64,000 nt of DNA from a virus. The stretch is from the IMG/VR virus record IMGVR_UViG_3300027418_000370; one strand, written 5' to 3'. The translations under genes were made by a program, and so were the position numbers. Below are positions 42,023 through 55,367 of the stretch, one piece after another. Under the pieces are notes generated by a model. That model had not been told where the DNA came from, ran no database searches, and saw only the letters and a list, made by a program, of their open reading frames with translations. Each line of letters starts with the position of its first letter. Position 1 is the first letter of the stretch.

Positions 42023-44560
42023 ATGAAAAAAGGTAAGTTCTGGATGTTACTTGGAGCAATTGTGTTGTCTTCCAACGTAGCGTTCGCACAAGAGACCCCT
42101 GACTATACAGCTCTCGACTCGCTCTATCAGCTAGACGAAGTAACTGTAACCTCAGGGGTTATTGATATCGCTAAGGTTCGAGAGACACCTGTAGCAGTAT
42201 CGACTCTGTCTTTAGCAGAGATCCAACTAAAGGTGGGTAACTTAGAGTTCCCAGAAGTAATGAACCGCACTCCAGGTGTATACGCTACCAAGCAAGGTGG
42301 TGGTTACGGCGACTCACGAATCAACCTTCGTGGCTTTGACCAGCGTAATACATCTATTCTTATCAACGGCCAGCCGGTCAACGATATGGAGAGTGGATGG
42401 GTTTATTGGTCCAACTGGCAAGGCCTTACTGATGTTGCATCTGGTATTCAGATCCAACGCGGCTTAGGTGCTTCCCGCTTAGCTGTTCCTTCTGTAGGTG
42501 GTACTATCTCCATCTTCACTAAGGCTGCAGAGAAGCAAGAAGGTGGATCTATCTCCCAGACTTCTGGTAACAATGGTTACTCAAAAACATCTGTTGTCTA
42601 TAACACAGGTAAGGATGCTAACGGATGGGCTACATCTGTACTTCTTTCCAAGTGGCAAGGTGACGGATATGCGTACGGTACAGCCGGTGAAGGTTGGACC
42701 TACTTCACAGCATTAGGTTATGCTCCTGAAGGTTCCGATCACGCCCTTAACTTCTCCTTCTTAGGAGCTGGTCAATGGCACCACCAAAGAAGTGCATGGG
42801 TATCTATCCGTGACTATCAGAACTTTGGTGAAGAGGGGATTGACCGTCGTTGGAATACCGATGCTGGTTTCTTGAATGGTGAAGAGTTTAATATGCGTAG
42901 AAACTTCTACAATAAGCCTCTTGCTACTATTAACTGGGACTGGAACATCAACTCCAACTGGAAACTAAACACTTCATTGTACGGTTCAGCCGGACGTGGT
43001 GGTGGCACAGGACCACGAGGCGGTAACTTCCGTAATGGAGATATCGACTTCTATCCTTACAACAAGGACCTTACTGAGCATTACTTAGATAATGGTAGAG
43101 GTACTCGTGACTCAAATGGCTTTATTGATTTCAATGCTGCTATTGCTGTTAACCAAGGTACTACTAATGGTTACGGTACAACTGACTCACTTACTTCATC
43201 TCCGTTCTACGGCTTGTTAGTCGGTTCTAACGGTTACAGAAGTAACGATGTTAACAGAGCTGTATTAGTACGTCGTGCTTCTATGAACTCACACGACTGG
43301 TATGGAGCTATCTCTAACTTAGAAGGTCAGTTCGGTAAGTTAAGAACTTCTATCGGTGTTGATCTTCGTACATACAAAGGTTACCACTACCGTGTTATGA
43401 ATGACTTGATGGGTCTTGACGCTTACTACTCAACTGGTAACAAGAACTCAGAAGGTCAGTTCATCACTACAACTGTTGCTGCTACTCCATTTACAGGTAC
43501 TGGCTTGAACGGTCCTAAGATTGACTACTACAACAATGGTATCGTAGGATGGCAAGGCGTTAATGGTTTACTGGAGTGGGCTGATACTAAGCTTACTGCT
43601 GTAGTGCAAGGTGGATTATCTAACCAATCTTTCCAGAGAGAAGACTTCTTCGACCAGCCGACACTTCCTATCTCAGAAGTTGCTAACCTAGGAGGCGGAT
43701 ACTTAAAGGGCGGTGCTAACTATAACATTAACGAGTACTCTAACGTATTCTTTAATACTGGTTACATCTCTCGTCAGCCTCAGTTTGATGCTGTATTCCC
43801 TAACTATGCTAACCTTATTAACGAAGACCTACAGAACGAAGAGATTACCTCTCTAGAATTAGGTTACGGTTATAACAGCAGCAAACTTACCTTAAATGTA
43901 AATGCTTACTCTACAACGTGGGGTAATCGTTTTATCACTCGTGCATTGTTTAATGCTCAAGGTGATCAGGGTTACGGTCAGTTCCGTAATATCGACGTAC
44001 GTCACAACGGTATTGAAGTTGAAGGTGTATACAACGCAACTCCTAAGTTGAAGTTGACTGCTATGACTTCTATCGGTGATTGGAGATACACTAAAGACTT
44101 TGATGCAGAGTTGTTCGACGATCAACAGCAATCAATCGGTACAGGTACTCTTTACTTAAAGGGTGCTAAGGTTGGTGATGCTGCTCAGTTCACTACTTAC
44201 TTAGCTGCTGACTACCGCGCTAATAAGTGGATTGCTCTTGATTTAGGTTACCGCTTTGTAGATGGTCTTTATGCTGACTACTCTATTGTAGATGCTGTCT
44301 TTACTCAACCAGACAATGCTGGAGCTCTTAAGCTTCCTTCATACGGTTTAGTAGATGCCGGCCTTACTACTCGCTTAGGTGAGAAGTGGTCTTTGAGAGT
44401 AAACGTCAACAACTTATTTGATGCTACTTACATCGCTGAGTCTGAAACAAACATCCACGCTGATGAGAACTCTGTTACCTGGAATGGTATCGACGTTCGT
44501 AACTCAGTATGGTTTGGTTTCGGCCGTACTTGGAACGCTAGCTTGAAGTACAACTTCTAA
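42023..44560 (+). CDS. TonB-dependent outer-membrane receptor
   Basis: Signal peptide, TonB-box-like LDEVTVT, plug motifs INLRGF...ILINGQP...GGTISIFTK, barrel end NVNNLFD...GRTWNASLKYNF. Confidence 0.92.
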   Translation: MKKGKFWMLLGAIVLSSNVAFAQETPDYTALDSLYQLDEVTVTSGVIDIAKVRETPVAVSTLSLAEIQLKVGNLEFPEVMNRTPGVYATKQGGGYGDSRINLRGFDQRNTSILINGQPVNDMESGWVYWSNWQGLTDVASGIQIQRGLGASRLAVPSVGGTISIFTKAAEKQEGGSISQTSGNNGYSKTSVVYNTGKDANGWATSVLLSKWQGDGYAYGTAGEGWTYFTALGYAPEGSDHALNFSFLGAGQWHHQRSAWVSIRDYQNFGEEGIDRRWNTDAGFLNGEEFNMRRNFYNKPLATINWDWNINSNWKLNTSLYGSAGRGGGTGPRGGNFRNGDIDFYPYNKDLTEHYLDNGRGTRDSNGFIDFNAAIAVNQGTTNGYGTTDSLTSSPFYGLLVGSNGYRSNDVNRAVLVRRASMNSHDWYGAISNLEGQFGKLRTSIGVDLRTYKGYHYRVMNDLMGLDAYYSTGNKNSEGQFITTTVAATPFTGTGLNGPKIDYYNNGIVGWQGVNGLLEWADTKLTAVVQGGLSNQSFQREDFFDQPTLPISEVANLGGGYLKGGANYNINEYSNVFFNTGYISRQPQFDAVFPNYANLINEDLQNEEITSLELGYGYNSSKLTLNVNAYSTTWGNRFITRALFNAQGDQGYGQFRNIDVRHNGIEVEGVYNATPKLKLTAMTSIGDWRYTKDFDAELFDDQQQSIGTGTLYLKGAKVGDAAQFTTYLAADYRANKWIALDLGYRFVDGLYADYSIVDAVFTQPDNAGALKLPSYGLVDAGLTTRLGEKWSLRVNVNNLFDATYIAESETNIHADENSVTWNGIDVRNSVWFGFGRTWNASLKYNF

Positions 44561-45184: not shown

Positions 45185-45547
45185 ATGTTAAAACGTTTTT
45201 GGAATTGGTTACTAGGTAAAACTACCATTGATGAAAAAGTAATCGAAGTTGTTGAAGAAGTAAAAGAAGACATCCAAGTTATTCGCGAAAGAGCTAAAAG
45301 AGTAGCTGAAGAGACTAGAGATGTACTTGAAGCTGCTAAAGAGGTTGCTAAGCAATCTAAAGATGTTGTTAGTGCTGCTAAAGGCGCTCCTAGAAAAGGA
45401 CGTAAGCCTGCTAATAGAAAGCCAGCTAACAAACCAGCTACCGCTCCTGCTCCTAAAGTAGAAGCTCCTAAAGTTGAAGTAGTAGAAGCTGCTAAGAAAC
45501 CTACCCCACGTCGTAGAAACAATCGTAAGCCAGCAGCTAAGAAATGA
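45185..45547 (+). CDS. Lys/Ala/Pro-rich basic protein with N-terminal amphipathic segment
   Basis: RKPANRKPANKP and APKVE repeats; histone-H1-like tail. Confidence 0.55.
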   Translation: MLKRFWNWLLGKTTIDEKVIEVVEEVKEDIQVIRERAKRVAEETRDVLEAAKEVAKQSKDVVSAAKGAPRKGRKPANRKPANKPATAPAPKVEAPKVEVVEAAKKPTPRRRNNRKPAAKK

Positions 45548-45786
45548 ACCAACCTAACGTAAACGTAAGTTTAGATCAAACATCACCAGTATCGTGTGAT
45601 GAATGCGGACACTTGTATTTTGAGCAAGCGCTCCATATCCGCAAAGTATCAGGCCTACTCACAGGTACAGGACAAACTTCGTACCTTCCTATCCCAGTCT
45701 TTGCATGTACCGCTTGCGGTCATATCAATACAGAATTTTTACCTAAAGAAGTTAAAGACCTGGGAAATGAACAAACCGCTGATTAG
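45544..45786 (+). CDS. Zinc-ribbon protein
   Basis: CDEC...CTACGH. Confidence 0.6.
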   Translation: MNQPNVNVSLDQTSPVSCDECGHLYFEQALHIRKVSGLLTGTGQTSYLPIPVFACTACGHINTEFLPKEVKDLGNEQTAD

Positions 45787-45888: not shown

Positions 45889-45921
45889 AGGGAAAGGGAC
45901 TACGGTCCCTATTCCTGTTTC
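45889..45921 (+). terminator. Putative terminator
   Basis: aggga-c-tacg-g-tccct core with an extended ggaa/ttcc stem and T-rich tail. Confidence 0.55.
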
Positions 45922-45983
45922 TATTTATTAAAGAATTGTTACAGGTAATTGTTTTCGTTAGTTCTATTAAACTATGACGACTT

Positions 45984-47906
45984 ATGAAAAAATTATTTGT
46001 AGCATTAGCTGCATTAATCAGCCTAACTGCCTTTGGACAGAATGGTAAGCTTGAAGTACTCACAGCTCCAAATTCCAACAGTCCTTACATCTTAGTAGAT
46101 ACCCTCTTCACATTAGAGGATACTTCTGTAACGACAGACATCTACATCCACTTTGCTAACCCTACAGCAAATGATGTCAAAGCTGTTCAGTTCAGATTGT
46201 TCTACGATGCTGTTAGATTCTCCAACGCTCAGATTTACTGGGGACCAACAGCCACTCCTGTAGCAGACAAATACGGCTCTTACTTTAAGAGCGGAGATTA
46301 CATTAACGTAATCGCTTCTTACACAGGAACATCCTCTAACTTTAACTGGGCTGACGGAGCAATGTTTAAATTAAGATTGACTCACTCTTCAGCTTATGCT
46401 GGTATTGCTGACTCAATTGCTATTGCAGGCTCTACTTCCTATAACAACTTAGCTACAACTGGCAACGGTACAGACGTTGCTTTAGGAATGTATAACTACG
46501 GAGGTAACTTCCAGATGCAGCCTCAATCATTCCCAATCAAAGTTAGAAACGCTGATGGATCAAATGCATTAGGAGTTTGGTTTACAGCTTCTAAGAGATT
46601 AAAAACAGATACTCAAGGTTCATGGACAACTATCGTATCTGATTCTACAGATGCAACTGGCCTTATGGTTGTTACTCACCCAATCGATACTGCTTACTGG
46701 CATTTAAGATTAGTAACTCAGACTGACACAATGTCTGACGGCTCTGCTATCTCTATTGTAGATGCTTATAAATTAGCTAATGCTGCTTCAATGCAAGATA
46801 CTTTAACAGGTATTGAATTATATGAAGGTGATATCAACGAGAGTGGTGATGCTACTATCTCTGATGCATTCGCAGTCTTTAACAGATTAGCTCTAGGAAC
46901 TACTAACTGGAACTCTTTATTCACAGGCGTTAATAACGTAGCTGTACTATGGCCTTCAGAATGGCAATCAGCAGTAGCTGCTACTTCTTTCCCTGCTTGG
47001 ACTAGTGCTCCTAGGAGATATGCAATCGATACGTTAGTAAACGGAATGGATAGCTTAAAGCCTTACATCTATGTAATTGGTGACGCTACTACAACTGGCT
47101 ATAACAACCCAGCTGTACTAGTAGGTAAGATGGCTAACCCAGGTACAGGTACTGAGTACATCTTAGACCCAGCTGTCTATATGCAGAACATCGACGATAC
47201 AGTTCAGTTTAGAATTCCTAAGCTAGTAATGACTCAGGATTATGAGATGCAAGTTCCTGTTGTAATGTTTACTTACGGCAACAGTATCGGAGCAGCTCAA
47301 ATGGCTATCGAGTATGATACTAATATCTTTAGATTTACTTCTATCGATATGGGTGATGCACCTTCTAAGTGGACTTCAATCCTATCAGTAGAGAAAGGAA
47401 AAGTATTCTGGGCCGGTCACGAAGACAAGCTTAACCCATCTGTGATTACAGACATGACTACAACCTTTACTTTCAACTTCGAAGTTATTCAACCTCTAGG
47501 TTGGCAGACATCTCCTCTAAAGATCAGCCAGAAGTTTGCTGGTGATGAGAATGCTTATGACTTAAACATCAAGCCTTCACCTAACGATGGTTCAGTTGTT
47601 AATAAGATGTCAATCGAGCCAGGCTTGTTAGAGCTTATTGAAGGCTTTAAAGTATATCCTAATCCAACATCAGCTGATTATGATAACTGGGTCTTCATTG
47701 AGCACCACAACGATTACGAAGGTAGCACTTTACGCGCTGCAGTTTACAATATGTACGGCCAGCAGGTTATGTACTGGGAAGATCAAATTCAACAGAAAGG
47801 TTTCCAATTCCAAGGCTTCCAATTAAGTAACCTTCCAAAAGGTACATACTTAATCAAGCTAGTTGCTCATGATAGAGAAAAAGTTTATAGAATAATTAAA
47901 TACTAA
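45984..47906 (+). CDS. Secreted cohesin/dockerin-like protein with T9SS type-A C-terminal sorting domain
   Basis: Signal peptide; cohesin-like AVQFRLFYD and AAQMAIEYDTN; dockerin-like GDINESGDATISDAF; CTD KVYPNPT...VYNMYGQQV...LSNLPKGTYLIKL...RIIK. Confidence 0.8.
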   Translation: MKKLFVALAALISLTAFGQNGKLEVLTAPNSNSPYILVDTLFTLEDTSVTTDIYIHFANPTANDVKAVQFRLFYDAVRFSNAQIYWGPTATPVADKYGSYFKSGDYINVIASYTGTSSNFNWADGAMFKLRLTHSSAYAGIADSIAIAGSTSYNNLATTGNGTDVALGMYNYGGNFQMQPQSFPIKVRNADGSNALGVWFTASKRLKTDTQGSWTTIVSDSTDATGLMVVTHPIDTAYWHLRLVTQTDTMSDGSAISIVDAYKLANAASMQDTLTGIELYEGDINESGDATISDAFAVFNRLALGTTNWNSLFTGVNNVAVLWPSEWQSAVAATSFPAWTSAPRRYAIDTLVNGMDSLKPYIYVIGDATTTGYNNPAVLVGKMANPGTGTEYILDPAVYMQNIDDTVQFRIPKLVMTQDYEMQVPVVMFTYGNSIGAAQMAIEYDTNIFRFTSIDMGDAPSKWTSILSVEKGKVFWAGHEDKLNPSVITDMTTTFTFNFEVIQPLGWQTSPLKISQKFAGDENAYDLNIKPSPNDGSVVNKMSIEPGLLELIEGFKVYPNPTSADYDNWVFIEHHNDYEGSTLRAAVYNMYGQQVMYWEDQIQQKGFQFQGFQLSNLPKGTYLIKLVAHDREKVYRIIKY

Positions 47907-47909
47907 ATT

Positions 47910-48284
47910 ATGTCAGAAGAACAAGAAGGAGGAATGTCAACTCTTAAGAAGACTATCCTCGGTATCGGTACAACAATCATCACAGGCGCCGGCGCTTATG
48001 TAACAACTCACATCGACGCTTTGTTCGGTATAGAGGAAGAAGCTGCTACAGAAGTAGCTGCACCTGTACAGAACAACCAACAGAGTGTTAATGTGACTGG
48101 TCCAGAGATTATTATTAATATGCCAGAACAGAAAGCTGCGCCATCTCAGACAACTATCATCAGAGAGACTGTTAAGGAAGTTCCTGCAGCACCAGTTGAG
48201 GTAGTTGAAGAGAAGCCGGAGACAAATGCTGAAAGAATGGCTCGTCTAAAGAAAGCAAAAGAAGAACGTAACGCAGGTAAGTAA
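47910..48284 (+). CDS. Single-pass membrane protein
   Basis: N-terminal TM segment, Pro/Glu-rich linker. Confidence 0.55.
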   Translation: MSEEQEGGMSTLKKTILGIGTTIITGAGAYVTTHIDALFGIEEEAATEVAAPVQNNQQSVNVTGPEIIINMPEQKAAPSQTTIIRETVKEVPAAPVEVVEEKPETNAERMARLKKAKEERNAGK

Positions 48285-48286
48285 TC

Positions 48287-49027
48287 ATGAGAACAAGAAG
48301 AGATGAAGTTTTAGAGCTTATATTTGCTCCACTAGGTTTAGTATTAGTTGTATTTAGTTTGCTCTTTGTAGGAGGAATGGCTACGTCTTGTAGCTCTTCT
48401 ATTGGAGTAGTTCAATATCAAGCTGAGTTTGAGAAGGCAGAAGAGTTAAATACTCTACCAATCTACACAGGTGAAAGACAAGTAGTACAGTTATCTAAAC
48501 TAAACGTTAATAAAGAGCTGTGGGATATGTTTCCTGAGCTTAGAGACAAGAGAGTTGGTTTAGGAGTATCAAATAGAATTATTGAGAACTTTGAGATGAC
48601 AGGCCGCTTTAGCTATGCTGAAGAGAAAGATGCTATTGTATCTCAGATGTTAGATGCATGGGAGACAGAGTTAGAAGGTATGTCCAACGGTCAAACAGAA
48701 CTTACCATGGAAGGTATAGCTGTACCAAAATACATTGTCTATGCTGAAATTTACGACTTCGCTGTATCATACGGAGAAGATTATAACAAAGGTAAAGTCC
48801 AAAAGACTAACACTACCATCATCGGTATTCAAATCAGAATGGTTAATGTAGACAACTCACAGTACATTGTAGCATCAGGACAAGGAACAGCTACTCAGAT
48901 TGGTGAGGGTATGTTTAAAGATCCTAAAATGGGATTCGATCAGTCTACAGTCGGTATTGCTACACAACGTGCTCTTGAGGTCGCTACAGTGAACCTTGTC
49001 AAGCGCATGGAGGCTTATGGATGGTAA
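48287..49027 (+). CDS. CsgG/HfaB-family lipoprotein
   Basis: Lipobox ATS-C; TGRFSYAE, YIVYAEIYDF, IQIRMVNVDNSQYIVASGQG resemble the CsgG fold. Confidence 0.7.
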   Translation: MRTRRDEVLELIFAPLGLVLVVFSLLFVGGMATSCSSSIGVVQYQAEFEKAEELNTLPIYTGERQVVQLSKLNVNKELWDMFPELRDKRVGLGVSNRIIENFEMTGRFSYAEEKDAIVSQMLDAWETELEGMSNGQTELTMEGIAVPKYIVYAEIYDFAVSYGEDYNKGKVQKTNTTIIGIQIRMVNVDNSQYIVASGQGTATQIGEGMFKDPKMGFDQSTVGIATQRALEVATVNLVKRMEAYGW

Positions 49028-50531
49028 ATGGTGGAAAGTATTAATTTTACTGGTACTCGGATTCAGTAGCTACGGACAGTACGTTTACACCTACACCGAT
49101 CCTTGTACCGGAATACTTAATGCTGTCACTATTACCCAGCCATCAGGCAGTGTAACCTTATTCTATGCAGGACAATACAACACCTTTACTCAGGCCCAGC
49201 TTCAAGCCGGAGCATTCGAGCTTTGGGTACAAAGTGTTAACGCAACTGCTCCTCCAGGAAGTAACCCCTGCGCTGGAGCAGGAGGAACTCTCTCTACAGG
49301 ATCAAATGCAACTACTGGTACTAATACAGCCACTAATATCTCAGGCATAGTAGGTGTAGCAGCTAATATAGGAGGGAGTTTAGGAAGTGGAGCAGCATCA
49401 TCAACAGGAGGAGCAACAGGAGGGTCGACCAGTAACAATGACAACAACGGAAGCGGTTCGAACAATTCTACTGGTGGAAGTACTTCTACTGGCGGTAGCG
49501 GTTCTGGATCCGGCTCATCAGGGTCCTCTGGTAGCTCTGGCGGTAATGCTGGGACTGGTGGCGGTTCCGGTGGCTCTACTGGCTCGGGCGGAGGCTCAGG
49601 CTCGACTGGAGGATCTGGAGGCTCAGGTTCAGGAGGCGGTGCTACAGGAGGATCTGGAGGAGGTCAAGGAGGAGACAATTCAGGAAACGGAATAGGTGGC
49701 GGAGGTGATGCCGGAGGAGTAGATACAGGAACTAATACTGGAGGTACTTCTGATGGTGGAACTGATGCTGGTGCTGTAGGAGGTACAGAGAATACTTCAA
49801 CAGCCTCAGGAGGAGACTCTGAATCATCTTCCTCAGAAGGAGATGGAGGAGGAGGATCTGGTGGAGGTAAGAAGCAGAAATCTAAACAAGAGAAGATTGG
49901 TAGAGGTGCTTTAATTGGTGCCGGTGACTTTGTTATTGTTAGAAACTCTTCTGATATTAAACAGAGTGGAATGGACAACTTTAAGTTCAATATGTCTCTT
50001 ACTCACGTTAATACTAAACAGACTTTCATCAAAGGTATTAACTTTAACTTTACCACAGGAGAGAATGTATTGAATAGTACTTTGTACGGTTCATATAAGA
50101 AAGAAGGCTTCATGGGAGTATTCTCTAACTCTACTATGACTAACTTTAAGACTGATATCTTCAATACAACTACAGCGTTAGTAGCTCAAAAGGTTTGGAT
50201 AGTAACTCCTATGTTAGGAACTAACTTTACGTTAGGTAAGATAGGTGATAGCGACTTCCAGAACTGGTCTATTGTAGCAGGAGGCTATACAAACTTTAAA
50301 GGTATTCAAGCTCTATCAGGTAACGTAATGTTACTTGGTATCTATTCTCCGTACATATTTTATTATGAAGGACAGTGGTATAAGTCTGGACTCCTATTTG
50401 TTCCTCTAGCGAACGTTGATTTTAAAATCACAAGTACGTTTAAGTGGAGTATTTCTTTTGGAGGAGCTTACCAGTACAATGCAGATATATTAAACTACCA
50501 GCTATCAACTGGAACAAAAATTATGTTATGA
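49017..50531 (+). CDS. Secreted protein with long Gly/Ser/Thr-rich linker and C-terminal beta-barrel-like domain
   Basis: Signal peptide ending SYG-Q; about 170 aa of low-complexity G/S; amphipathic beta-strands at the C-terminus. Confidence 0.65.
   Translation: MDGKWWKVLILLVLGFSSYGQYVYTYTDPCTGILNAVTITQPSGSVTLFYAGQYNTFTQAQLQAGAFELWVQSVNATAPPGSNPCAGAGGTLSTGSNATTGTNTATNISGIVGVAANIGGSLGSGAASSTGGATGGSTSNNDNNGSGSNNSTGGSTSTGGSGSGSGSSGSSGSSGGNAGTGGGSGGSTGSGGGSGSTGGSGGSGSGGGATGGSGGGQGGDNSGNGIGGGGDAGGVDTGTNTGGTSDGGTDAGAVGGTENTSTASGGDSESSSSEGDGGGGSGGGKKQKSKQEKIGRGALIGAGDFVIVRNSSDIKQSGMDNFKFNMSLTHVNTKQTFIKGINFNFTTGENVLNSTLYGSYKKEGFMGVFSNSTMTNFKTDIFNTTTALVAQKVWIVTPMLGTNFTLGKIGDSDFQNWSIVAGGYTNFKGIQALSGNVMLLGIYSPYIFYYEGQWYKSGLLFVPLANVDFKITSTFKWSISFGGAYQYNADILNYQLSTGTKIML
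49380..49868 (+). repeat. Low-complexity Gly/Ser-coding repeat
   Basis: Imperfect GGx/TCx codon repeats encoding GGSGSG units. Confidence 0.7.
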
Positions 50532-51718
50532 AAAAGCTACTGCTGTTATTTCTTCCCTTATCCACTCTAGCACAGACTATAACCTTTGCTACTGTTGGTG
50601 TACAGGACATGACCGGCATTAGTGTTGAAGTAGAACATTATGTACCAGGAGGTACTTCAGGAACTATTACAGCTTTAGGTACAACTGTACCTACGGATAG
50701 AGGACAAGCCTCTAATGTAGTTTTCTCAACAGCTAACTCAGACCAAGGAAGCGTTTTAATTAACTTCCCTACAGGGTATAGCTATACAATTGGAGCTACT
50801 ACTCACACAACAGGTACCCTTCATGCTAATGCCTGGATGGCATTCCCTTCTACTACATATAATAGTTACAATAGCTCTGCTACAGCTCCTAACGTACCAA
50901 CACTTCACTTCACTTCAGTCGACAACGGCTCTACAGATAATAATATGTCTCATGTATCTTGGGAGACGTACACTGATGTTACATACGGAGATGTATTTAG
51001 GATAAGGTACGAAGGAAGCTATAAATACAATGTGAGTGGCATTAATACTAAAATAGATTTATACTTCTTTAAAAACGATCCTGCTAAATGCTTTGTAGTA
51101 CTTAGAACATTCCTAGCTGATGGATCTAATCAAGAACAAATCGGACTATCAAACGGAAGTACTTGGTTAGCTTCTAACTTAATCAGTAACGCAACATACT
51201 CTTCAGGAGTAGGCTTTCAAATAACGAACGCAGTATCTAATTCAATCTGGTCTTCACAAGGAGTACAGACAACTACATCAACAGGTTCAGTAACATTCTC
51301 TAACCCAAACAGCTATCAATATAGAGTAATTGTAAACGTAAGCGGAATAGACAATACATTTACAGAGTCAGAGATGAACTACTTAATGTATCTAAGAATG
51401 TTTCCTACTGAGATAGCATCATGGGATTACCATACAATGAACTTCTACGCACCAGACAGTTCTGATATTGTAACTTACTCAGATGTATTCTCTGCTTACC
51501 AAATATACAAATGGGGACAGAACTTTGGGTACACTTACAATAACAACTGGGTGTACTCTCAAGCAGAGAAGGATGATATAGAAGTAAATGCTAATAGTTT
51601 AACATACCATCTGAAGTATCCTCAAGCAGCAGTACGAACATTTAACAATCTTAACAGGTTTTATATTGTATCACTTGGTAAACATCGCCAAACTAAACCA
51701 GTAAATAAAATCCAATGA
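50528..51718 (+). CDS. Secreted beta-rich protein with degenerate dockerin-like C-terminal motif
   Basis: MKKLLLLFLPLSTLA-Q signal peptide; DIVTYSDVFSAYQ. Confidence 0.55.
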   Translation: MKKLLLLFLPLSTLAQTITFATVGVQDMTGISVEVEHYVPGGTSGTITALGTTVPTDRGQASNVVFSTANSDQGSVLINFPTGYSYTIGATTHTTGTLHANAWMAFPSTTYNSYNSSATAPNVPTLHFTSVDNGSTDNNMSHVSWETYTDVTYGDVFRIRYEGSYKYNVSGINTKIDLYFFKNDPAKCFVVLRTFLADGSNQEQIGLSNGSTWLASNLISNATYSSGVGFQITNAVSNSIWSSQGVQTTTSTGSVTFSNPNSYQYRVIVNVSGIDNTFTESEMNYLMYLRMFPTEIASWDYHTMNFYAPDSSDIVTYSDVFSAYQIYKWGQNFGYTYNNNWVYSQAEKDDIEVNANSLTYHLKYPQAAVRTFNNLNRFYIVSLGKHRQTKPVNKIQ

Positions 51719-52113
51719 ACCCAATCGTATGTTACTTCGTCGCTAGTGTAATGTCTCTAGCATCAATCAATGGAATCGAACAAGAGAAATTTACGTTCGG
51801 TGTAAGACAAATCACAGAAGAGATCGTAGGACAGCAGGCTCCTTTATGTCCTGATGGCAGTCCTATCTATGTTGTAGTAGAAGAGATTAAAGCTCCTACT
51901 CAAGGTATTCGTGTAGGTCCTTTTGAGTTTAAACAAAAGAAAACCTATGTTACTGTTAAGGTAACTAAGGATGGTAAAGAGTCTGTAGGAGTAGGAACAG
52001 CTAAGATGAATGTAGCAGCTACTCTACTTCAACTTCAGGATGAAAATCTTCCATTCGAACAAACAGAATTTTCTATTGCAATCAAGAAAGCTATTGTGGA
52101 TGCGTTAGACTGA
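51715..52113 (+). CDS. Small protein, possibly a second CsgG-like fold
   Basis: FTFGVRQITEEIV...GVGTAK...FEQTEFSIAIKKAI parallels the 48287 protein (GLGVSNRIIE...GQGTA...FDQSTVGIATQRAL). Confidence 0.45.
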   Translation: MNPIVCYFVASVMSLASINGIEQEKFTFGVRQITEEIVGQQAPLCPDGSPIYVVVEEIKAPTQGIRVGPFEFKQKKTYVTVKVTKDGKESVGVGTAKMNVAATLLQLQDENLPFEQTEFSIAIKKAIVDALD

Positions 52114-52154: not shown

Positions 52155-52427
52155 ATGTTAAATTATATTAAAAAGAAATTTATGGCGTTTTCAGACATTT
52201 TTAAGGATGATAACTCATACAATGAAAAGAACATTGTAGGGTTTGCTTCTTTTGCAGTAATGAGTATCTTTGCTGCTGCCGATATCGTAACAGGTATCTT
52301 AGGTATGGACTTAGTAATCTCTGATACTATCTTCAACTCATTCGTAATTATCGTATTGGGTTCATTTGGTATCGATGGTGCTACTAAGATCTTCAGCAAA
52401 GAGAATAAAGAAGAAGAACAAGGTTAA
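52155..52427 (+). CDS. Two-TM membrane protein, holin-like
   Basis: Two hydrophobic helices, charged C-terminus, directly upstream of the endolysin. Confidence 0.55.
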   Translation: MLNYIKKKFMAFSDIFKDDNSYNEKNIVGFASFAVMSIFAAADIVTGILGMDLVISDTIFNSFVIIVLGSFGIDGATKIFSKENKEEEQG

Positions 52428-52438
52428 AATAGTTTACA

Positions 52439-53254
52439 ATGGTATTAAGAAAAGGTGACAATAACGAAACCGTAAAGAAGATCCAAAAGGTCTTAGGTGT
52501 CGAGCAAGTAGGTAACTTTGGTCCTAAGACTGAAGCTGCTGTTAAGGAATGGCAGAAGAAGAACGGACTAGCTGCCGACGGTATTGTTGGCCCTGCTACT
52601 CTAGCTAAGATGGGCATTGTAGTAGAGGCAGCACCAGTTAAAGCTCCTAACAACACTCCTACAGCTGATGCAAAGTATAGCAAAGAGAAGATCGAAGCTA
52701 CTATCAAAGCAAAAGACTATCAATGGTTCGAAGGTGACTACGTACTTAACATTGTAGGTGTTCGTAATTCAGACACAGGTACAGCCGTAACAAATGCTTT
52801 CGATGATAAGATTACTTTATCTTATATGGCTGAAGGCAAATGGGTATACAAGGAGTGGATGAATACAACTGACCCTGGTACAAAAGGAGTTAAGGAGTAT
52901 CACAACGCTGCCGGAGTAGCTAGATTAGTTCCTGGTCAATACATCAACTCACACTTCTTAGGTAAGCACCAAGGTAAGTATGAAGCTCTTAAGCAAGGCG
53001 GTAAAGTAAAAGTATACCGTGATGCTAACAGAGATATGAATTATGATGAGAAAGTTATCCAAGAGGGTGTATTCGGAATCAATATTCACAAGGCCGGAGC
53101 CAATTCTACTTATGTAGAGAACTGGTCTGAAGGATGTCAAGTTTTCAAAAGAGCAGCTGACTTCGAAGAGTTCATGACTATCGTGAGAGCTTCAGTAGCA
53201 AAGGGTCACACTAAGTTTACTTATACTCTAATTGAATCTAAAGACATCGCATAA
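52439..53254 (+). CDS. Endolysin with N-terminal peptidoglycan-binding domain
   Basis: PG_binding_1 motif FGPKTEAAVKEWQKKNGLAADGIVGPAT; C-terminal GINIH...WSEGCQV. Confidence 0.8.
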   Translation: MVLRKGDNNETVKKIQKVLGVEQVGNFGPKTEAAVKEWQKKNGLAADGIVGPATLAKMGIVVEAAPVKAPNNTPTADAKYSKEKIEATIKAKDYQWFEGDYVLNIVGVRNSDTGTAVTNAFDDKITLSYMAEGKWVYKEWMNTTDPGTKGVKEYHNAAGVARLVPGQYINSHFLGKHQGKYEALKQGGKVKVYRDANRDMNYDEKVIQEGVFGINIHKAGANSTYVENWSEGCQVFKRAADFEEFMTIVRASVAKGHTKFTYTLIESKDIA

Positions 53255-53257
53255 GCT

Positions 53258-53671
53258 ATGAAATCGACGTCCGTGTTCCTATCGATAACTGCAACCTTAA
53301 CATTCATGTGCACCTACTTTATGGAGCTCACAATGAGTAATGCAGAGCAATACTTAGCATTAATAGCGGTTGTATTTATCGATGGGTTCTTCGGCATCGC
53401 CGCAGGCATCAAAAGAGAAGGTTTTCAAACACGAAAGGCTGTAAGAGTATTACAGAGAGCAATAACGTGGGTAGCTTTCTTAACAGTTATATTAATGGTT
53501 GAAAAAGGTTTTGAAGGAACAGGATGGTTATCAGAAACAATCATCGTACCATTTATCATCCTCCAACTACTCAGTGCATTAAAGAACGCCTCAATGGTAG
53601 GCATCATCAAGAGCACAGACCTTAACAAGATCCTAGACAAGATCGATCTACACAAAGGAGATAGAAGTTAA
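53258..53671 (+). CDS. Phage holin (family 4-like)
   Basis: Three TM helices; IDGFFGI, LLSALKNAS. Confidence 0.7.
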   Translation: MKSTSVFLSITATLTFMCTYFMELTMSNAEQYLALIAVVFIDGFFGIAAGIKREGFQTRKAVRVLQRAITWVAFLTVILMVEKGFEGTGWLSETIIVPFIILQLLSALKNASMVGIIKSTDLNKILDKIDLHKGDRS

Positions 53672-54027: not shown

Positions 54028-54387
54028 ATGTCAGAAGAAATAGTTAAGTACGGCCCAAGTGCTACTGAGATCCTCAAGAAAGAATATCCTACCATTTATA
54101 ATGGCTATATGGCTGTCATGGAAGAGCAGCTGGAGCTATTTAGTAAGAAACATCTTGACTACGGTATGCATAATATTACTGCTGGTACTCAGCTTAGTAA
54201 TGAAGAAGAAAGGTCTTTTGCTCTTACAGGGCTTTGGTATCGAATGAGCGATAAGATCAATCGTTGGAAGAATTTAATTATTAAGAATAGAGGAACACAA
54301 AATGAATCTCTATCAGATACCTTTCAGGACATCTGTAACTATGCAATCATCTGCCAGCTGGTAGAGAAAGGATTGTGGAAAAAATAA
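54028..54387 (+). CDS. Nucleotide-modification-associated domain protein (DUF1599-like)
   Basis: KKHLDYG...RMSDKINR...ESLSDTFQDICNYAII. Confidence 0.75.
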   Translation: MSEEIVKYGPSATEILKKEYPTIYNGYMAVMEEQLELFSKKHLDYGMHNITAGTQLSNEEERSFALTGLWYRMSDKINRWKNLIIKNRGTQNESLSDTFQDICNYAIICQLVEKGLWKK

Positions 54388-55326: not shown

Positions 55327-55367
55327 TCTAGGGTATATTTATATATAGATATATAATACTAAAGGCT

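What the first reader, a model, noticed from the sequence alone, without database searches (positions are those of the whole stretch)
45984..52113. Phage-encoded surface/secretion cassette: cohesin-dockerin-T9SS cargo, CsgG-like lipoprotein and Gly-rich beta-barrel protein
Seen: six tightly packed genes, most with export signals, after a terminator and a TATTTAT motif and directly before the lysis genes. They encode a protein with two cohesin-like regions, a dockerin-like motif and a clear T9SS CTD; a membrane protein; a CsgG-like lipoprotein; a G/S-linker beta-barrel-like protein; a second dockerin-like secreted protein; and a small CsgG-like protein. Known: T9SS CTDs route cargo to the Bacteroidota surface, cohesin-dockerin pairs assemble complexes, and CsgG forms outer-membrane secretion pores. 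Inference: the phage uses the host T9SS and its own pore to build a surface complex on infected cells (superinfection exclusion, aggregation, grazer defence or lysis assistance). I know of no characterised phage system like this.
Basis: partly seen in the sequence, partly recalled or inferred. Interest (0 to 1): 0.82.

Follow-up and report, generated by a model that had tools for sequence, protein, structure and literature searches.

The report
Phage envelope module with lectin display
A large uncultured phage of Flavobacterium-type bacteria carries, next to its lysis genes, a widely conserved block of exported proteins that probably mounts sugar-binding proteins on the infected cell's envelope; this has never been tested.

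Summary
The six genes are real, tightly coupled and conserved. P1 is a type IX secretion (T9SS) cargo with two cohesin folds, a dockerin-like two-loop segment and a type-A C-terminal sorting domain. P2 is a single-pass inner-membrane protein. P3 has the CsgG fold, but the segments that form the CsgG membrane pore are shortened and charged, and about half of its distant homologues are not lipoproteins. A CsgG-type pore is therefore not supported. P6 is a minimal paralogue of P3. P4 has a small disulphide-bonded N-domain, a Gly/Ser linker of very variable length and a probable 12-strand outer-membrane barrel. P5 fills a variable slot of 0-3 secreted proteins. These share a dockerin-like C-terminal module; in relatives they carry C-type lectin, PA14 or LamG heads.

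The order P1-P2-P3-P4-[slot]-P6 recurs in 68 of the 80 IMG/VR loci kept (402 matched) and in cultured Flavobacterium phage immuto. A lysis gene lies beside it in 50 of those 68 loci.

Best reading: a cellulosome-like, envelope-anchored lectin display on infected cells. A lysis-related role is the main rival. This scan has already found the same module in other genomes. I found no published description of the whole module.

The parts
45895..45910 (+). Terminator-like hairpin (6 bp stem, 4 GC pairs) with a T-rich tail, ending the upstream unit
   Evidence: sequence read
45922..45929 (+). TATTTATT, a promoter-like motif
   Evidence: 12 of 14 TATTTATW sites are on the + strand. Nine or ten of them lie in short intergenic spacers just upstream of genes (compared by eye with the ORF list). 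The next site downstream is at 55336.
45984..47906 (+). P1: secreted scaffoldin-like T9SS cargo (640 aa)
   Evidence: Pfam Cohesin and Por_Secre_tail, TIGR04183. Of 35 homologues, 35 have the CTD, 34 Cohesin and 5 Dockerin_1. AF2 model pLDDT 80.7.
46068..46520 (+). P1 cohesin 1 (residues 29-179)
   Evidence: VIA Z 14.2, rmsd 2.8, 142 aligned to the CipA cohesin 1aoh_B
46524..46721 (+). P1 small beta-sandwich (residues 181-246), possibly X-module-like
   Evidence: AF2 secondary structure. The Coh-X-Doc fragment 3kcp_A aligns to 33-308 with Z 13.2 but rmsd 8.7, so this is only suggestive.
46725..46898 (+). P1 dockerin-like segment (residues 248-305): two Ca-loop-plus-helix units
   Evidence: Loop 2 is D283-x-N285-x-S287-G288-x5-D294. 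D260, D283, N285 and D294 are invariant in 35 sequences. Helices 258-268, 277-282 and 292-304. Dockerin_1 hits in 5 of 35 homologues, best E 2.3e-4.
47187..47612 (+). P1 cohesin 2 (residues 402-543)
   Evidence: Pfam Cohesin E 2.9e-5. VIA Z 15.5, rmsd 2.7, 138 aligned to 6kgd_A.
47628..47903 (+). P1 T9SS type-A C-terminal sorting domain (residues 549-640)
   Evidence: PF18962 E 6e-9 and TIGR04183 E 9e-11. VIA Z 10.2 to the NucA CTD bound in the T9SS, 8glk_D. It is the only CTD in the 124.6-kb record.
47910..48284 (+). P2: N-in single-pass membrane protein with a low-complexity periplasmic tail
   Evidence: Conserved N-terminal TM segment (motif GLKKTI.G...T.I..GG.W) across loci; distant homologues end in ...SW or ...PW
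48287..49027 (+). P3: CsgG-fold lipoprotein, probably not a CsgG-type pore
   Evidence: 30 of 58 homologues hit Pfam CsgG; the profile hits E. coli CsgG at E 8e-7; AF2 pLDDT 86; VIA Z 13-14.4 to CsgG. The TM1 and TM2 equivalents are short and charged.
49017..50531 (+). P4: signal peptide, ~65-aa N-domain with two invariant Cys, Gly/Ser linker, C-terminal barrel
   Evidence: Total length in homologues ranges from 328 to 737 aa, and almost all the difference is in the linker.
49890..50528 (+). P4 C-terminal outer-membrane beta-barrel-like domain (residues 299-511 of the 511-aa ORF)
   Evidence: ESM Atlas structure search: TM by query 0.72-0.88 over ~200 residues to autotransporter beta-domains, DUF481 and a short protein cluster with TonB-receptor barrel annotation. 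Some homologues end in F. No Pfam or PDB sequence match.
50528..51718 (+). P5: secreted protein in the variable slot; head domain of unknown family
51311..51715 (+). P5 C-terminal module (residues ~262-396) shared by the slot proteins, with a degenerate dockerin-like loop
   Evidence: relatives keep D-x-N-x-D-G-x5-D plus a helix and a terminal GGT.NFYLL.PGY motif; the window copy has DSSDIVTYSD
51715..52113 (+). P6: minimal CsgG-fold paralogue of P3
   Evidence: hhalign of P6 profile A5 against P3 profile A1: probability 97.9%, E 4e-13
52155..53671 (+). Context: lysis cassette of a 2-TM protein (D1), endolysin and holin
   Evidence: A homologue of one of these three genes lies beside the module in 50 of 68 loci, median gap 69 bp.

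Best explanation
The block is a phage-encoded envelope module that assembles in the infected Bacteroidota cell. P1 is exported by Sec and then by the host's T9SS, which is what a type-A CTD specifies. It would end up at the cell surface as a small scaffoldin with two cohesins and one dockerin-like unit. The slot proteins (P5 here; one to three proteins with C-type lectin, PA14 or LamG heads in relatives) share a C-terminal module with a dockerin-like calcium loop. They are inferred to plug into P1's cohesins, which would give a cellulosome-style display of exchangeable glycan-binding heads. P2 (inner membrane), P3 and P6 (two CsgG-fold periplasmic or outer-membrane-associated proteins) and P4 (outer-membrane barrel with a long flexible stalk and a small N-domain) are inferred to form the envelope anchor or export aid for this assembly. 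They are not inferred to form a curli-type pore. The module appears to be expressed together with the lysis genes. The most likely benefit is glycan-mediated adhesion: holding neighbouring host cells or particles, or covering receptors on the dying cell and its debris. Shown here: the folds, the export signals, the co-conservation, the slot variability and the lysis linkage. Inferred: every protein-protein contact, the surface location, the timing and the benefit.
For: P1 domain set: (two cohesins Z 14.2 and 15.5; CTD Z 10.2; invariant Ca-loop residues). Slot family: 60 of 65 distinct slot proteins form one similarity network, and all 65 listed begin with, or shortly after an over-extended start contain, a signal-peptide-like hydrophobic N-terminus. 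Of 28 scanned, 11 hit Lectin_C, 5 PA14 and 3 Laminin_G_3, with single hits to pentaxin, GLEYA and Dockerin_1; none hit the T9SS CTD. They share a C-terminal dockerin-like loop. Co-conservation: the order P1-P2-P3-P4-[slot]-P6 holds with P3 identity down to ~37% and P1 down to ~27%. It is also present in cultured phage immuto. Even the reduced variant keeps a cohesin-plus-CTD protein (hhalign 99.2%), a P4 with a short linker and a P6-like gene. The P3 subfamily is essentially viral: 402 IMG/VR hits against 11 MAG contigs among 185,579 species genomes. The P4 stalk length varies from ~40 to ~450 residues. PA14 and GLEYA are adhesin domains (established knowledge).
Against: No binding has been shown. 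The slot proteins have no CTD, so their route across the outer membrane is unknown. The window's own P5 has a degenerate Ca loop and a head of unknown family. P3 lacks pore hairpins, and P4's barrel is too small to pass folded proteins. P6 of this clade lacks a normal signal peptide. The tight linkage to endolysin and holin fits a lysis role at least as naturally. The membrane orientation of P4's N-domain is unknown.
Confidence: 0.45

Rival explanations
1. Lysis accessory. P2 (inner-membrane tether), P3 and P6 (periplasmic or outer-membrane-associated) and P4 (outer-membrane barrel) form an envelope-spanning complex. It either breaks or permeabilises the outer membrane after endolysin action (a spanin-equivalent for Bacteroidota phages) or times lysis. 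P1 and the lectins would be secondary.
For: A homologue of D1, the endolysin or the holin lies beside the module in 50 of 68 loci (median gap 69 bp). It can lie upstream, downstream or inside the module. D1-endolysin-holin stays together even where the endolysin type is swapped. No promoter-like motif, and no + strand terminator-like site after 50714, separates the module from the lysis genes up to the end of the scan at 54200. The order of P2 (N-terminal TM) followed by lipoprotein P3 resembles i-spanin/o-spanin pairs (established knowledge). No spanin was recognised here by family scans. A lysis-timing role has been proposed for the phage CsgG/CsgF genes of Melnitz (PMC9004378).
Against: P3 is a 210-residue folded CsgG-type domain, not a small proline-rich o-spanin. 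About half of the distant P3 homologues are not lipoproteins. P2's periplasmic part is low-complexity rather than coiled-coil. This reading does not explain the strictly co-conserved T9SS scaffoldin or the hypervariable lectin slot. In immuto the endolysin lies ~6 kb away, beyond small genes and tRNAs.
Confidence: 0.2
2. Superinfection exclusion ring. P3 and P6 form a TraT- or Llp-like outer-membrane-associated ring, held by P4, that blocks adsorption or DNA entry of later phages. The lectin scaffold would mask surface receptors.
For: The P3 model also matches ring- or plug-forming outer-membrane lipoproteins: PelC Z 10.8, LptE 9.8 and the decameric surface-exclusion protein TraT 8.8. Lectin heads vary between close relatives, as expected for parts that track host surface glycans.
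Against: The TraT match is far weaker than the CsgG match and lies in the common-fold range. Exclusion genes are usually early genes, whereas this block sits with lysis genes. There is no experimental hint.
Confidence: 0.12
3. Type VIII-like export system. The two CsgG-fold proteins plus the P4 barrel form a channel that exports the slot proteins or P4's own Gly/Ser segment, as curli CsgG exports CsgA.
For: P3 belongs to the CsgG superfamily by sequence and fold. The slot proteins have Sec signals only and many end in an aromatic residue. Pelagimyophages and Melnitz carry true csgG and csgF genes.
Against: In P3 the TM1 equivalent is about 6 residues shorter than in CsgG and charged (tip motif YGEDYNKGK). 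The TM2 equivalent is about 14 residues shorter (my count). There is no CsgE, CsgF, CsgA or CsgB relative. P3 is not lipidated in many lineages. A 12-strand barrel passes at most an unfolded chain.
Confidence: 0.1
4. The proteins are ordinary virion (tail or fibre) components, and the resemblance to envelope proteins is incidental.
For: Lectin-type and Ig-like domains are common in phage fibres (established knowledge).
Against: P1, P3, P4 and P5 have cleavable signal peptides, P3 fits the lipobox pattern, and P1 has a T9SS CTD. There are no PHROG structural hits. The block lies among replication and lysis genes.
Confidence: 0.02

Closest known systems
Cellulosome-type cohesin-dockerin assemblies (C. 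thermocellum CipA/SdbA, C. acetobutylicum CohA2-Doc0917) and non-cellulosomal cohesins
   Same: P1 has two domains with the type-I cohesin fold (Z 14-15.5). It also has a two-segment Ca-loop/helix unit placed like a Coh-X-Doc arrangement. The partner proteins carry a dockerin-like loop on a constant module with exchangeable functional heads.
   Different: It is encoded by a lytic phage of a Gram-negative host. It is anchored or exported by a T9SS CTD, not by SLH domains or sortase. The cargo is lectins, not glycoside hydrolases. The slot module has one loop rather than the canonical duplicated dockerin. No binding has been shown.
T9SS type-A CTD cargo, including the phage-encoded T9SS cargo reported in 'Cryophage' (Bellas et al. 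2020, PMC7468147)
   Same: Sec signal plus a TIGR04183/PF18962 CTD. Phage-borne cargo genes that vary between variants have been reported before.
   Different: In Cryophage the CTD sits on enzymes and a PA14 protein. Here it sits on a conserved cohesin scaffold, the variable lectins lack the CTD, and the cargo gene is tied to CsgG-fold and barrel genes.
CsgG of the curli (type VIII) system, and the 'curli operon' of pelagimyophage HTVC008M and OM43 phage Melnitz (PMC7029224, PMC9004378)
   Same: P3 and P6 belong to the CsgG superfamily. Those phages also carry a csgG gene of unknown purpose, for which aggregation ('sibling capture') and lysis timing have been proposed.
   Different: HTVC008M gp015 keeps full-length TM1 and TM2 segments and relates to P3 only distantly (hhalign 89.7%). 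Its CsgF, curlin-like gene, gp017 and gp018 are unrelated to P6 and P4. P3 lacks the pore hairpins.
Barrel-plus-lipoprotein pairs of the same fold class: PelB-PelC and LptD-LptE
   Same: A lipoprotein of the CsgG/PelC/LptE fold class is encoded beside an outer-membrane beta-barrel whose N-terminal part lies outside the barrel.
   Different: P4's barrel is much smaller (~210 residues). There are no TPR or LptD-type domains and no polysaccharide or LPS genes. The matches are by fold only (Z 9-11).
Type Va autotransporters
   Same: P4 has a signal peptide, an N-terminal passenger-like domain, a linker and a C-terminal ~12-strand barrel. Autotransporter beta-domains are among its nearest structural neighbours.
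   Different: There is no Pfam Autotransporter match. The passenger is only ~65 residues. The linker is low-complexity Gly/Ser of widely varying length. The topology is untested.
Two-component spanins (lambda Rz/Rz1; T4 PseT.3/PseT.2)
   Same: The gene order is a type-II inner-membrane protein followed by an outer-membrane lipoprotein, next to an endolysin and a holin.
   Different: P3 is a large folded domain and is not always lipidated. P2 lacks coiled-coil character. Four more conserved genes belong to the unit.

Membership tests
Cohesin domain (PF00963) | Sequence match above the Pfam gathering score | tested here: met
   P1 residues 422-538: 24.7 bits against a cut-off of 24.1. 34 of 35 homologues hit, best E 2.4e-12.
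Cohesin domain (PF00963) | Nine-strand jelly-roll fold superposable on solved cohesins | tested here: met
   Residues 402-543: Z 15.5, rmsd 2.7. Residues 29-179: Z 14.2, rmsd 2.8. These are AF2 models, not experimental structures.
Cohesin domain (PF00963) | Binds a dockerin | not testable with these tools
   This needs a binding assay such as ITC or pull-down.
Dockerin (PF00404) | Two duplicated ~22-residue segments, each a 12-residue Ca loop (D-x-[DN]-x-[DNS]-G-x5-D) plus a helix | tested here: inconclusive
   In P1, loop 2 is canonical and invariant. Loop 1 has one extra residue. The window sequence has no Pfam hit, but 5 of 35 homologues hit Dockerin_1. The slot module has a single loop, and the window's P5 copy is degenerate.
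T9SS type-A cargo (TIGR04183 / PF18962) | N-terminal Sec signal plus a C-terminal ~80-residue CTD above the curated cut-offs | tested here: met
   41.6 bits against 23, and 36.4 against 27. The fold matches a T9SS-bound CTD at Z 10.2. 35 of 35 homologues hit.
T9SS type-A cargo (TIGR04183 / PF18962) | Secretion depends on the host T9SS | not testable with these tools
   The host is unknown. The cultured relative infects Flavobacterium, a genus with T9SS (established knowledge).
CsgG curli pore (PF03783, type VIII secretion) | Homology to the CsgG family | tested here: met
   P3 itself gets no Pfam hit. However, 30 of 58 homologues do (best E 1.9e-25). The P3 family profile hits E. coli CsgG at E 8e-7, and the fold match is Z 13-14.4.
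CsgG curli pore (PF03783, type VIII secretion) | Two amphipathic hairpins (TM1, TM2) per protomer that build the 36-strand barrel | tested here: not met
   Alignments to E. coli and HTVC008M CsgG show the TM1 equivalent about 6 residues shorter and charged. They show the TM2 equivalent about 14 residues shorter. The AF2 model shows a polar hairpin tip.
CsgG curli pore (PF03783, type VIII secretion) | N-terminal lipidation | tested here: inconclusive
   The window P3 and many homologues fit the lipobox pattern. About half of the distant homologues, including immuto gp017, lack the Cys.
CsgG curli pore (PF03783, type VIII secretion) | Partner genes csgE, csgF, csgA and csgB | tested here: not met
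   No Pfam or NCBIfam hits at E up to 1-10. P6 is a CsgG-fold paralogue, not CsgE or CsgF.
Outer-membrane beta-barrel / type Va autotransporter (P4 C-terminus) | Closed beta-barrel of ~12 strands with a C-terminal beta-signal | tested here: inconclusive
   The Atlas's own model gives TM by query 0.72-0.88 to autotransporter beta-domains and other barrel clusters. Some homologues end in F. A crude amphipathicity scan gave partial support. No Pfam or PDB sequence hit. I could not fold this domain myself.
Two-component spanin | i-spanin with an N-terminal TMD and a coiled-coil periplasmic domain; small o-spanin lipoprotein; the genes are adjacent, overlapping or embedded within the lysis cassette | tested here: inconclusive
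   Gene order, TMD, lipobox and lysis-cassette position fit. The size and fold of P3, its frequent lack of lipidation and the low-complexity P2 tail do not fit.
Pelagimyophage 'curli operon' (HTVC008M gp014-gp018) | Orthology of the operon's genes | tested here: not met
   Only gp015 (CsgG) relates to P3, and distantly. gp014, gp016, gp017 and gp018 show no relation to P6, P3 or P4.

The most novel reading that the evidence does not exclude
Large phages of Bacteroidota build their own envelope-spanning apparatus in the infected cell, co-expressed with the lysis genes. They hijack the host T9SS to display a cohesin scaffold loaded with exchangeable lectins. The dying cell becomes sticky for host-type glycans. 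This either captures the next hosts (or particles where hosts live) or covers receptors on debris so that progeny are not wasted. The lectin slot would evolve like a second, cell-borne set of receptor-binding proteins.
Probability: 0.3. Interest if true: 0.85.

Novelty: new variant of a known kind. Interest (0 to 1): 0.72.

Why it matters
If the reading holds, this is a previously undescribed class of phage function. The phage would rebuild the surface of its host with a modular, cellulosome-like lectin display that uses the host's own type IX secretion system. The module is common: 402 IMG/VR contigs, marine, estuarine and freshwater. It shows a hypervariable slot typical of arms-race or host-specificity genes. 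It is also present in a cultured phage-host pair (immuto / Flavobacterium sp. LMO8), so it can be tested directly. It bears on two open questions: how phages find hosts in dilute waters, and how Bacteroidota phages, for which spanins are rarely recognised, finish lysis. It would also add a natural, compact cohesin-dockerin set for a Gram-negative surface. Even if the role turns out to be lysis-related, a CsgG-fold, barrel and tether complex would be a new kind of lysis component.

Tried and rejected
1. Complex prediction of P1 (25-545) with the P5 C-terminal module (255-396): score 0.00, no verdict. It says nothing either way.
2. Direct nucleotide search of the block against cultured phages: no match. 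Only tblastn found the immuto phages.
3. Single-sequence Pfam, NCBIfam and PHROG scans of P2-P6 gave nothing useful. P3 was placed only through diverse homologues.
4. PDB sequence searches found nothing for P3 alone, P1, the P6 profile, the P4 barrel profile or the P5 subfamily profile.
5. The idea that this is the pelagimyophage 'curli operon' was rejected. tblastn of P3 or of the reduced-variant P3 finds no pelagiphage.
6. The ~150-aa ORF that follows P6 in distant loci is not a further paralogue.
7. The idea that P1 plus lectins and P3/P4/P6 are unrelated neighbours was weakened. The divergent reduced variant still keeps a cohesin-CTD protein beside P3-P4-P6.
8. TATTTATW is not enriched overall (14 found against 12.9 expected). 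Only its strand and intergenic placement are notable.
9. Sigma-70-type promoter and terminator counts equal those in shuffles.
10. In the RNA run, only four short contigs lie on the stretch. Parts without cover mean nothing.
11. The crude beta-amphipathicity scan of the P4 barrel was only partly informative.
12. Literature searches for a phage cohesin/dockerin/lectin module found no description.

Full report
WHERE IT LIES

The window is part of a 124.6-kb linear IMG/VR virus record, estimated 76% complete. All of its long ORFs are on the + strand. The closest cultured relatives are the Flavobacterium phages vB_FspM_immuto (160 kb, Immutovirus, Baltic Sea). DNA nearly identical to the block occurs in many marine and estuarine metagenomes.

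THE OBSERVATION

The six ORFs exist as described. They are separated by 2-3 nt or overlap: 11 nt for P3/P4, and ATGA overlaps for P4/P5 and P5/P6.

Upstream lie a terminator-like hairpin (45895-45910) and TATTTATT (45922-45929). This octamer is not enriched overall. However, 12 of its 14 copies are on the + strand, and nine or ten sit in short spacers just before genes (compared). It therefore looks like a promoter element.

No further copy occurs before 55336. No + strand terminator-like site follows 50714 up to the end of the scan at 54200. The block may therefore be transcribed together with the genes behind it. These are a 2-TM protein (D1), an endolysin and a holin.

One estuarine metatranscriptome run holds contigs identical to the P2/P3 junction and to D1/endolysin. 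This is only a weak hint of transcription, because DNA can be present in RNA libraries.

P1: THE T9SS SCAFFOLDIN

- Pfam and NCBIfam find a cohesin domain and a type-A T9SS sorting domain.
- Among 35 homologues at 21-74% identity, all 35 keep the CTD, 34 keep the cohesin, and 5 reach Dockerin_1, best E 2.3e-4.
- An AlphaFold2 model (pLDDT 80.7) has two cohesin folds. Residues 402-543 align to a type-I cohesin at Z 15.5, rmsd 2.7. Residues 29-179 align to the CipA cohesin at Z 14.2.
- The CTD aligns to the NucA CTD caught in the T9SS at Z 10.2.
- Between the cohesins lie a small beta-sandwich and three helices (258-304).
- These helices carry two calcium-loop motifs. The second is a canonical D-x-N-x-S-G-x5-D, and its Asp and Asn residues are invariant.
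- P1 is the only cohesin and the only CTD gene in the record.

P3 AND P6: TWO CsgG-FOLD PROTEINS

P3 has no family hit by itself. An exhaustive search found 185 diverse relatives. Thirty of 58 full-length relatives hit Pfam CsgG, best E 1.9e-25. Their profile finds E. coli CsgG at E 8e-7.

The AF2 model (pLDDT 86) matches CsgG best: Foldseek E ~1e-7, VIA Z 13-14.4 with 169-192 residues aligned. After CsgG come Cj1090c, CT253, PelC, LptE, FlgT and TraT.

P3 is unlikely to be a CsgG-type pore, for three reasons.

- In the alignments to E. coli and pelagiphage CsgG, the TM1 equivalent is about six residues shorter and full of charges.
- In the same alignments, the TM2 equivalent is about fourteen residues shorter.
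- The lipobox is present here and in many relatives, but about half of the distant ones, including immuto gp017, lack it.

P6 is a trimmed paralogue of P3 (profile-profile probability 97.9%, E 4e-13). Distant P6 proteins have clear signal peptides and two conserved Cys. In the window's clade the gene starts only five residues before the first Cys. I cannot explain this.

P2 AND P4

P2 has a conserved N-terminal TM helix and a low-complexity periplasmic tail.

P4 has a signal peptide and a ~65-residue N-domain with two invariant Cys. It then has a Gly/Ser-rich linker and a C-terminal ~210-residue domain.

- The linker ranges from about 40 to 450 residues among homologues. It is also length-polymorphic in natural populations.
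- The ESM Atlas model of the C-terminal domain superposes on autotransporter beta-domains and other outer-membrane barrels (TM by query 0.72-0.88). Some homologues end in Phe.
I rate the barrel as probable, not shown.

P5 AND THE VARIABLE SLOT

Between P4 and P6, related loci carry 0-3 genes.

- Sixty of 65 distinct slot proteins form one similarity network. All 65 have a signal-peptide-like N-terminus.
- Their heads differ. Of 28 scanned, 11 hit the C-type lectin family, 5 PA14 and 3 LamG. There are single hits to Ig_7, GEVED, pentaxin and GLEYA.
- Three loci also carry a ~195-residue slot gene outside this network. The one scanned (L061) hits the secreted non-specific endonuclease family.
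- None carries a T9SS CTD.
- The slot proteins share a ~120-residue C-terminal module. It has one dockerin-like loop (D-x-N-x-D-G-x5-D plus a helix) and a terminal GGT.NFYLL.PGY motif.
- The window's P5 belongs to this family. Its loop is degenerate and its head matches nothing.
- In immuto the slot is empty. A C-type lectin gene and a nuclease gene lie just upstream of P1 instead.

CONSERVATION

- A pattern scan of IMG/VR found 402 contigs encoding a P3 relative.
- Of the 80 loci kept, 68 carry at least three core genes in the order P1-P2-P3-P4-[slot]-P6. P3 identity falls as low as ~37% and P1 as low as ~27%.
- Immuto has the same order, with P1 split by a +1 frame change.
- A reduced variant keeps P3, a P4 with a short acidic linker (hhalign 98.1%) and a P6-like gene. 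It also keeps, upstream, a 949-residue protein whose C-terminus equals P1's second cohesin plus CTD (99.2%).
- The cohesin-CTD protein and the CsgG-fold and barrel genes therefore stay together across large distances.
- Among one genome for each of 185,579 prokaryote species, only 11 contigs matched, all from MAGs. The contig with the full module is 254 kb and looks viral.
- Bacteria of the FCB group have tandem CsgG-like pairs next to caspase or cyclase genes. The domain also occurs fused to caspases and kinases. These are distant cellular relatives with other contexts.

LINK TO LYSIS

In 50 of the 68 loci, a homologue of D1, the endolysin or the holin lies beside the module. The median gap is 69 bp and the largest 1851 bp. 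The lysis gene can lie upstream, downstream or inside the module. D1-endolysin-holin stays together even where the endolysin type differs.

WHAT IT MOST LIKELY IS

The parts cover every layer of the envelope.

- Inner membrane: P2.
- Periplasm or the inner face of the outer membrane: P3 and P6.
- Outer membrane: P4.
- Surface: P1, through the host T9SS.

A family of secreted, exchangeable glycan-binding proteins shares a dockerin-like module. The simplest model that uses all parts is a cellulosome-like lectin display anchored in the envelope of the infected cell and made together with the lysis proteins.

PA14 and GLEYA heads are classic adhesin and flocculin domains (established knowledge). 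The rapid turnover of heads is what one expects of parts that must match host surface glycans.

I favour adhesion, either capture of neighbouring hosts or particles, or covering of receptors on the dying cell and its debris. I hold this at 0.45, because no contact, location or timing has been shown. How the CTD-less lectins cross the outer membrane is also unknown.

The main rival (0.2) is a lysis function of the P2-P3-P6-P4 set, either spanin-like or lysis-timing. It fits the gene neighbourhood but not the scaffoldin and lectins. Exclusion-ring and type-VIII-like export readings are weaker. A virion role is very unlikely.

COMPARISON WITH WHAT IS KNOWN

- Phage-encoded T9SS cargo has been reported in a metagenomic 'Cryophage' (PMC7468147).
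- Phage csgG and csgF genes are known in pelagimyophages and in phage Melnitz. Aggregation ('sibling capture') and lysis timing have been proposed for them (PMC7029224, PMC9004378).
- I compared the HTVC008M operon directly. Only its CsgG relates to P3, and distantly. It keeps the pore hairpins that P3 lacks, and the other four genes are unrelated.
- I found no paper describing the composite module.
- Earlier notes of this scan describe the same module in other genomes with similar conclusions. That is a repeat of the idea, not independent evidence.

VERDICT

The module is a new variant built from known kinds of parts, with high interest because it is widespread, modular and testable in a cultured system.

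Noticed in passing
window 42023-44560 (+): The phage encodes a full-length TonB-dependent receptor of 845 aa with a signal peptide, Plug and barrel domains, and a match to PHROG 5687. It lies 1.4 kb upstream of the module. No homologue was found within 8 kb of the module in any of the 80 related loci.
   Followed up: partly
window 8968, 13814, 16601, 17263, 22838, 35388, 45152, 45922, 55336 (+): TATTTATW sits in short intergenic spacers just upstream of genes, and 12 of its 14 copies are on the + strand. It is probably a phage promoter element. Its timing class is unknown.
   Followed up: partly
L002 9001-10825 (NC_055915 gp014/gp015): In all immuto isolates the P1 homologue is split into two ORFs by a +1 frame change. 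The second ORF, with the cohesin and CTD, then has no signal peptide of its own. This could be a real split, a programmed frameshift or a sequencing error shared by the isolates.
   Followed up: no
window 51715-51790: In the window's clade, P6 starts five residues before the conserved first Cys and has no charged n-region. Distant homologues have normal signal peptides. How this P6 reaches the periplasm is unexplained.
   Followed up: partly
window 45544-45786 (+): An 80-aa protein with two CxxC pairs (zinc-ribbon-like) recurs close to the module in several distant loci: L008, L012, L073, L077 and L088.
   Followed up: no
L061 12066-12656, L062 11191-11772, L065 9677-10261; L002 7338-7916: Three loci carry a ~195-aa slot gene of a shared family. 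The one scanned (L061) matches the secreted non-specific endonuclease family, Endonuclease_NS E 4.6e-21. Immuto has a nuclease and a C-type lectin gene directly upstream of P1.
   Followed up: partly
L084 7956-10896; L085 7980-14019; proteins P0275, P0300, P0330, P0301, P0332, P0387: Cellular relatives of P3 occur as tandem CsgG-like pairs beside caspase-domain or CHASE2-cyclase proteins. They also occur fused to caspase or Ser/Thr kinase domains. This is a different, possibly signalling, context for the same fold.
   Followed up: partly
window 52439-53254 compared with L008 12829-13440: The order D1-endolysin-holin is kept while the endolysin is swapped. The window has PG_binding_1 plus phrog_3000, and the relative has phrog_181.
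   Followed up: partly
window 49640-49743: A metagenome contig replaces 102 bases of the P4 Gly/Ser linker with 150 other bases. The linker is therefore length-polymorphic in natural populations.
   Followed up: no
L059 7387-7977, L071 7346-7996, L073 7489-7968, L075 7642-8004, L077 7534-7938: Distant versions of the module carry an extra ORF of 120-216 aa between P2 and P3. In other loci the D1-like 2-TM gene sits in that place. The identity of the extra ORF is unknown.
   Followed up: no
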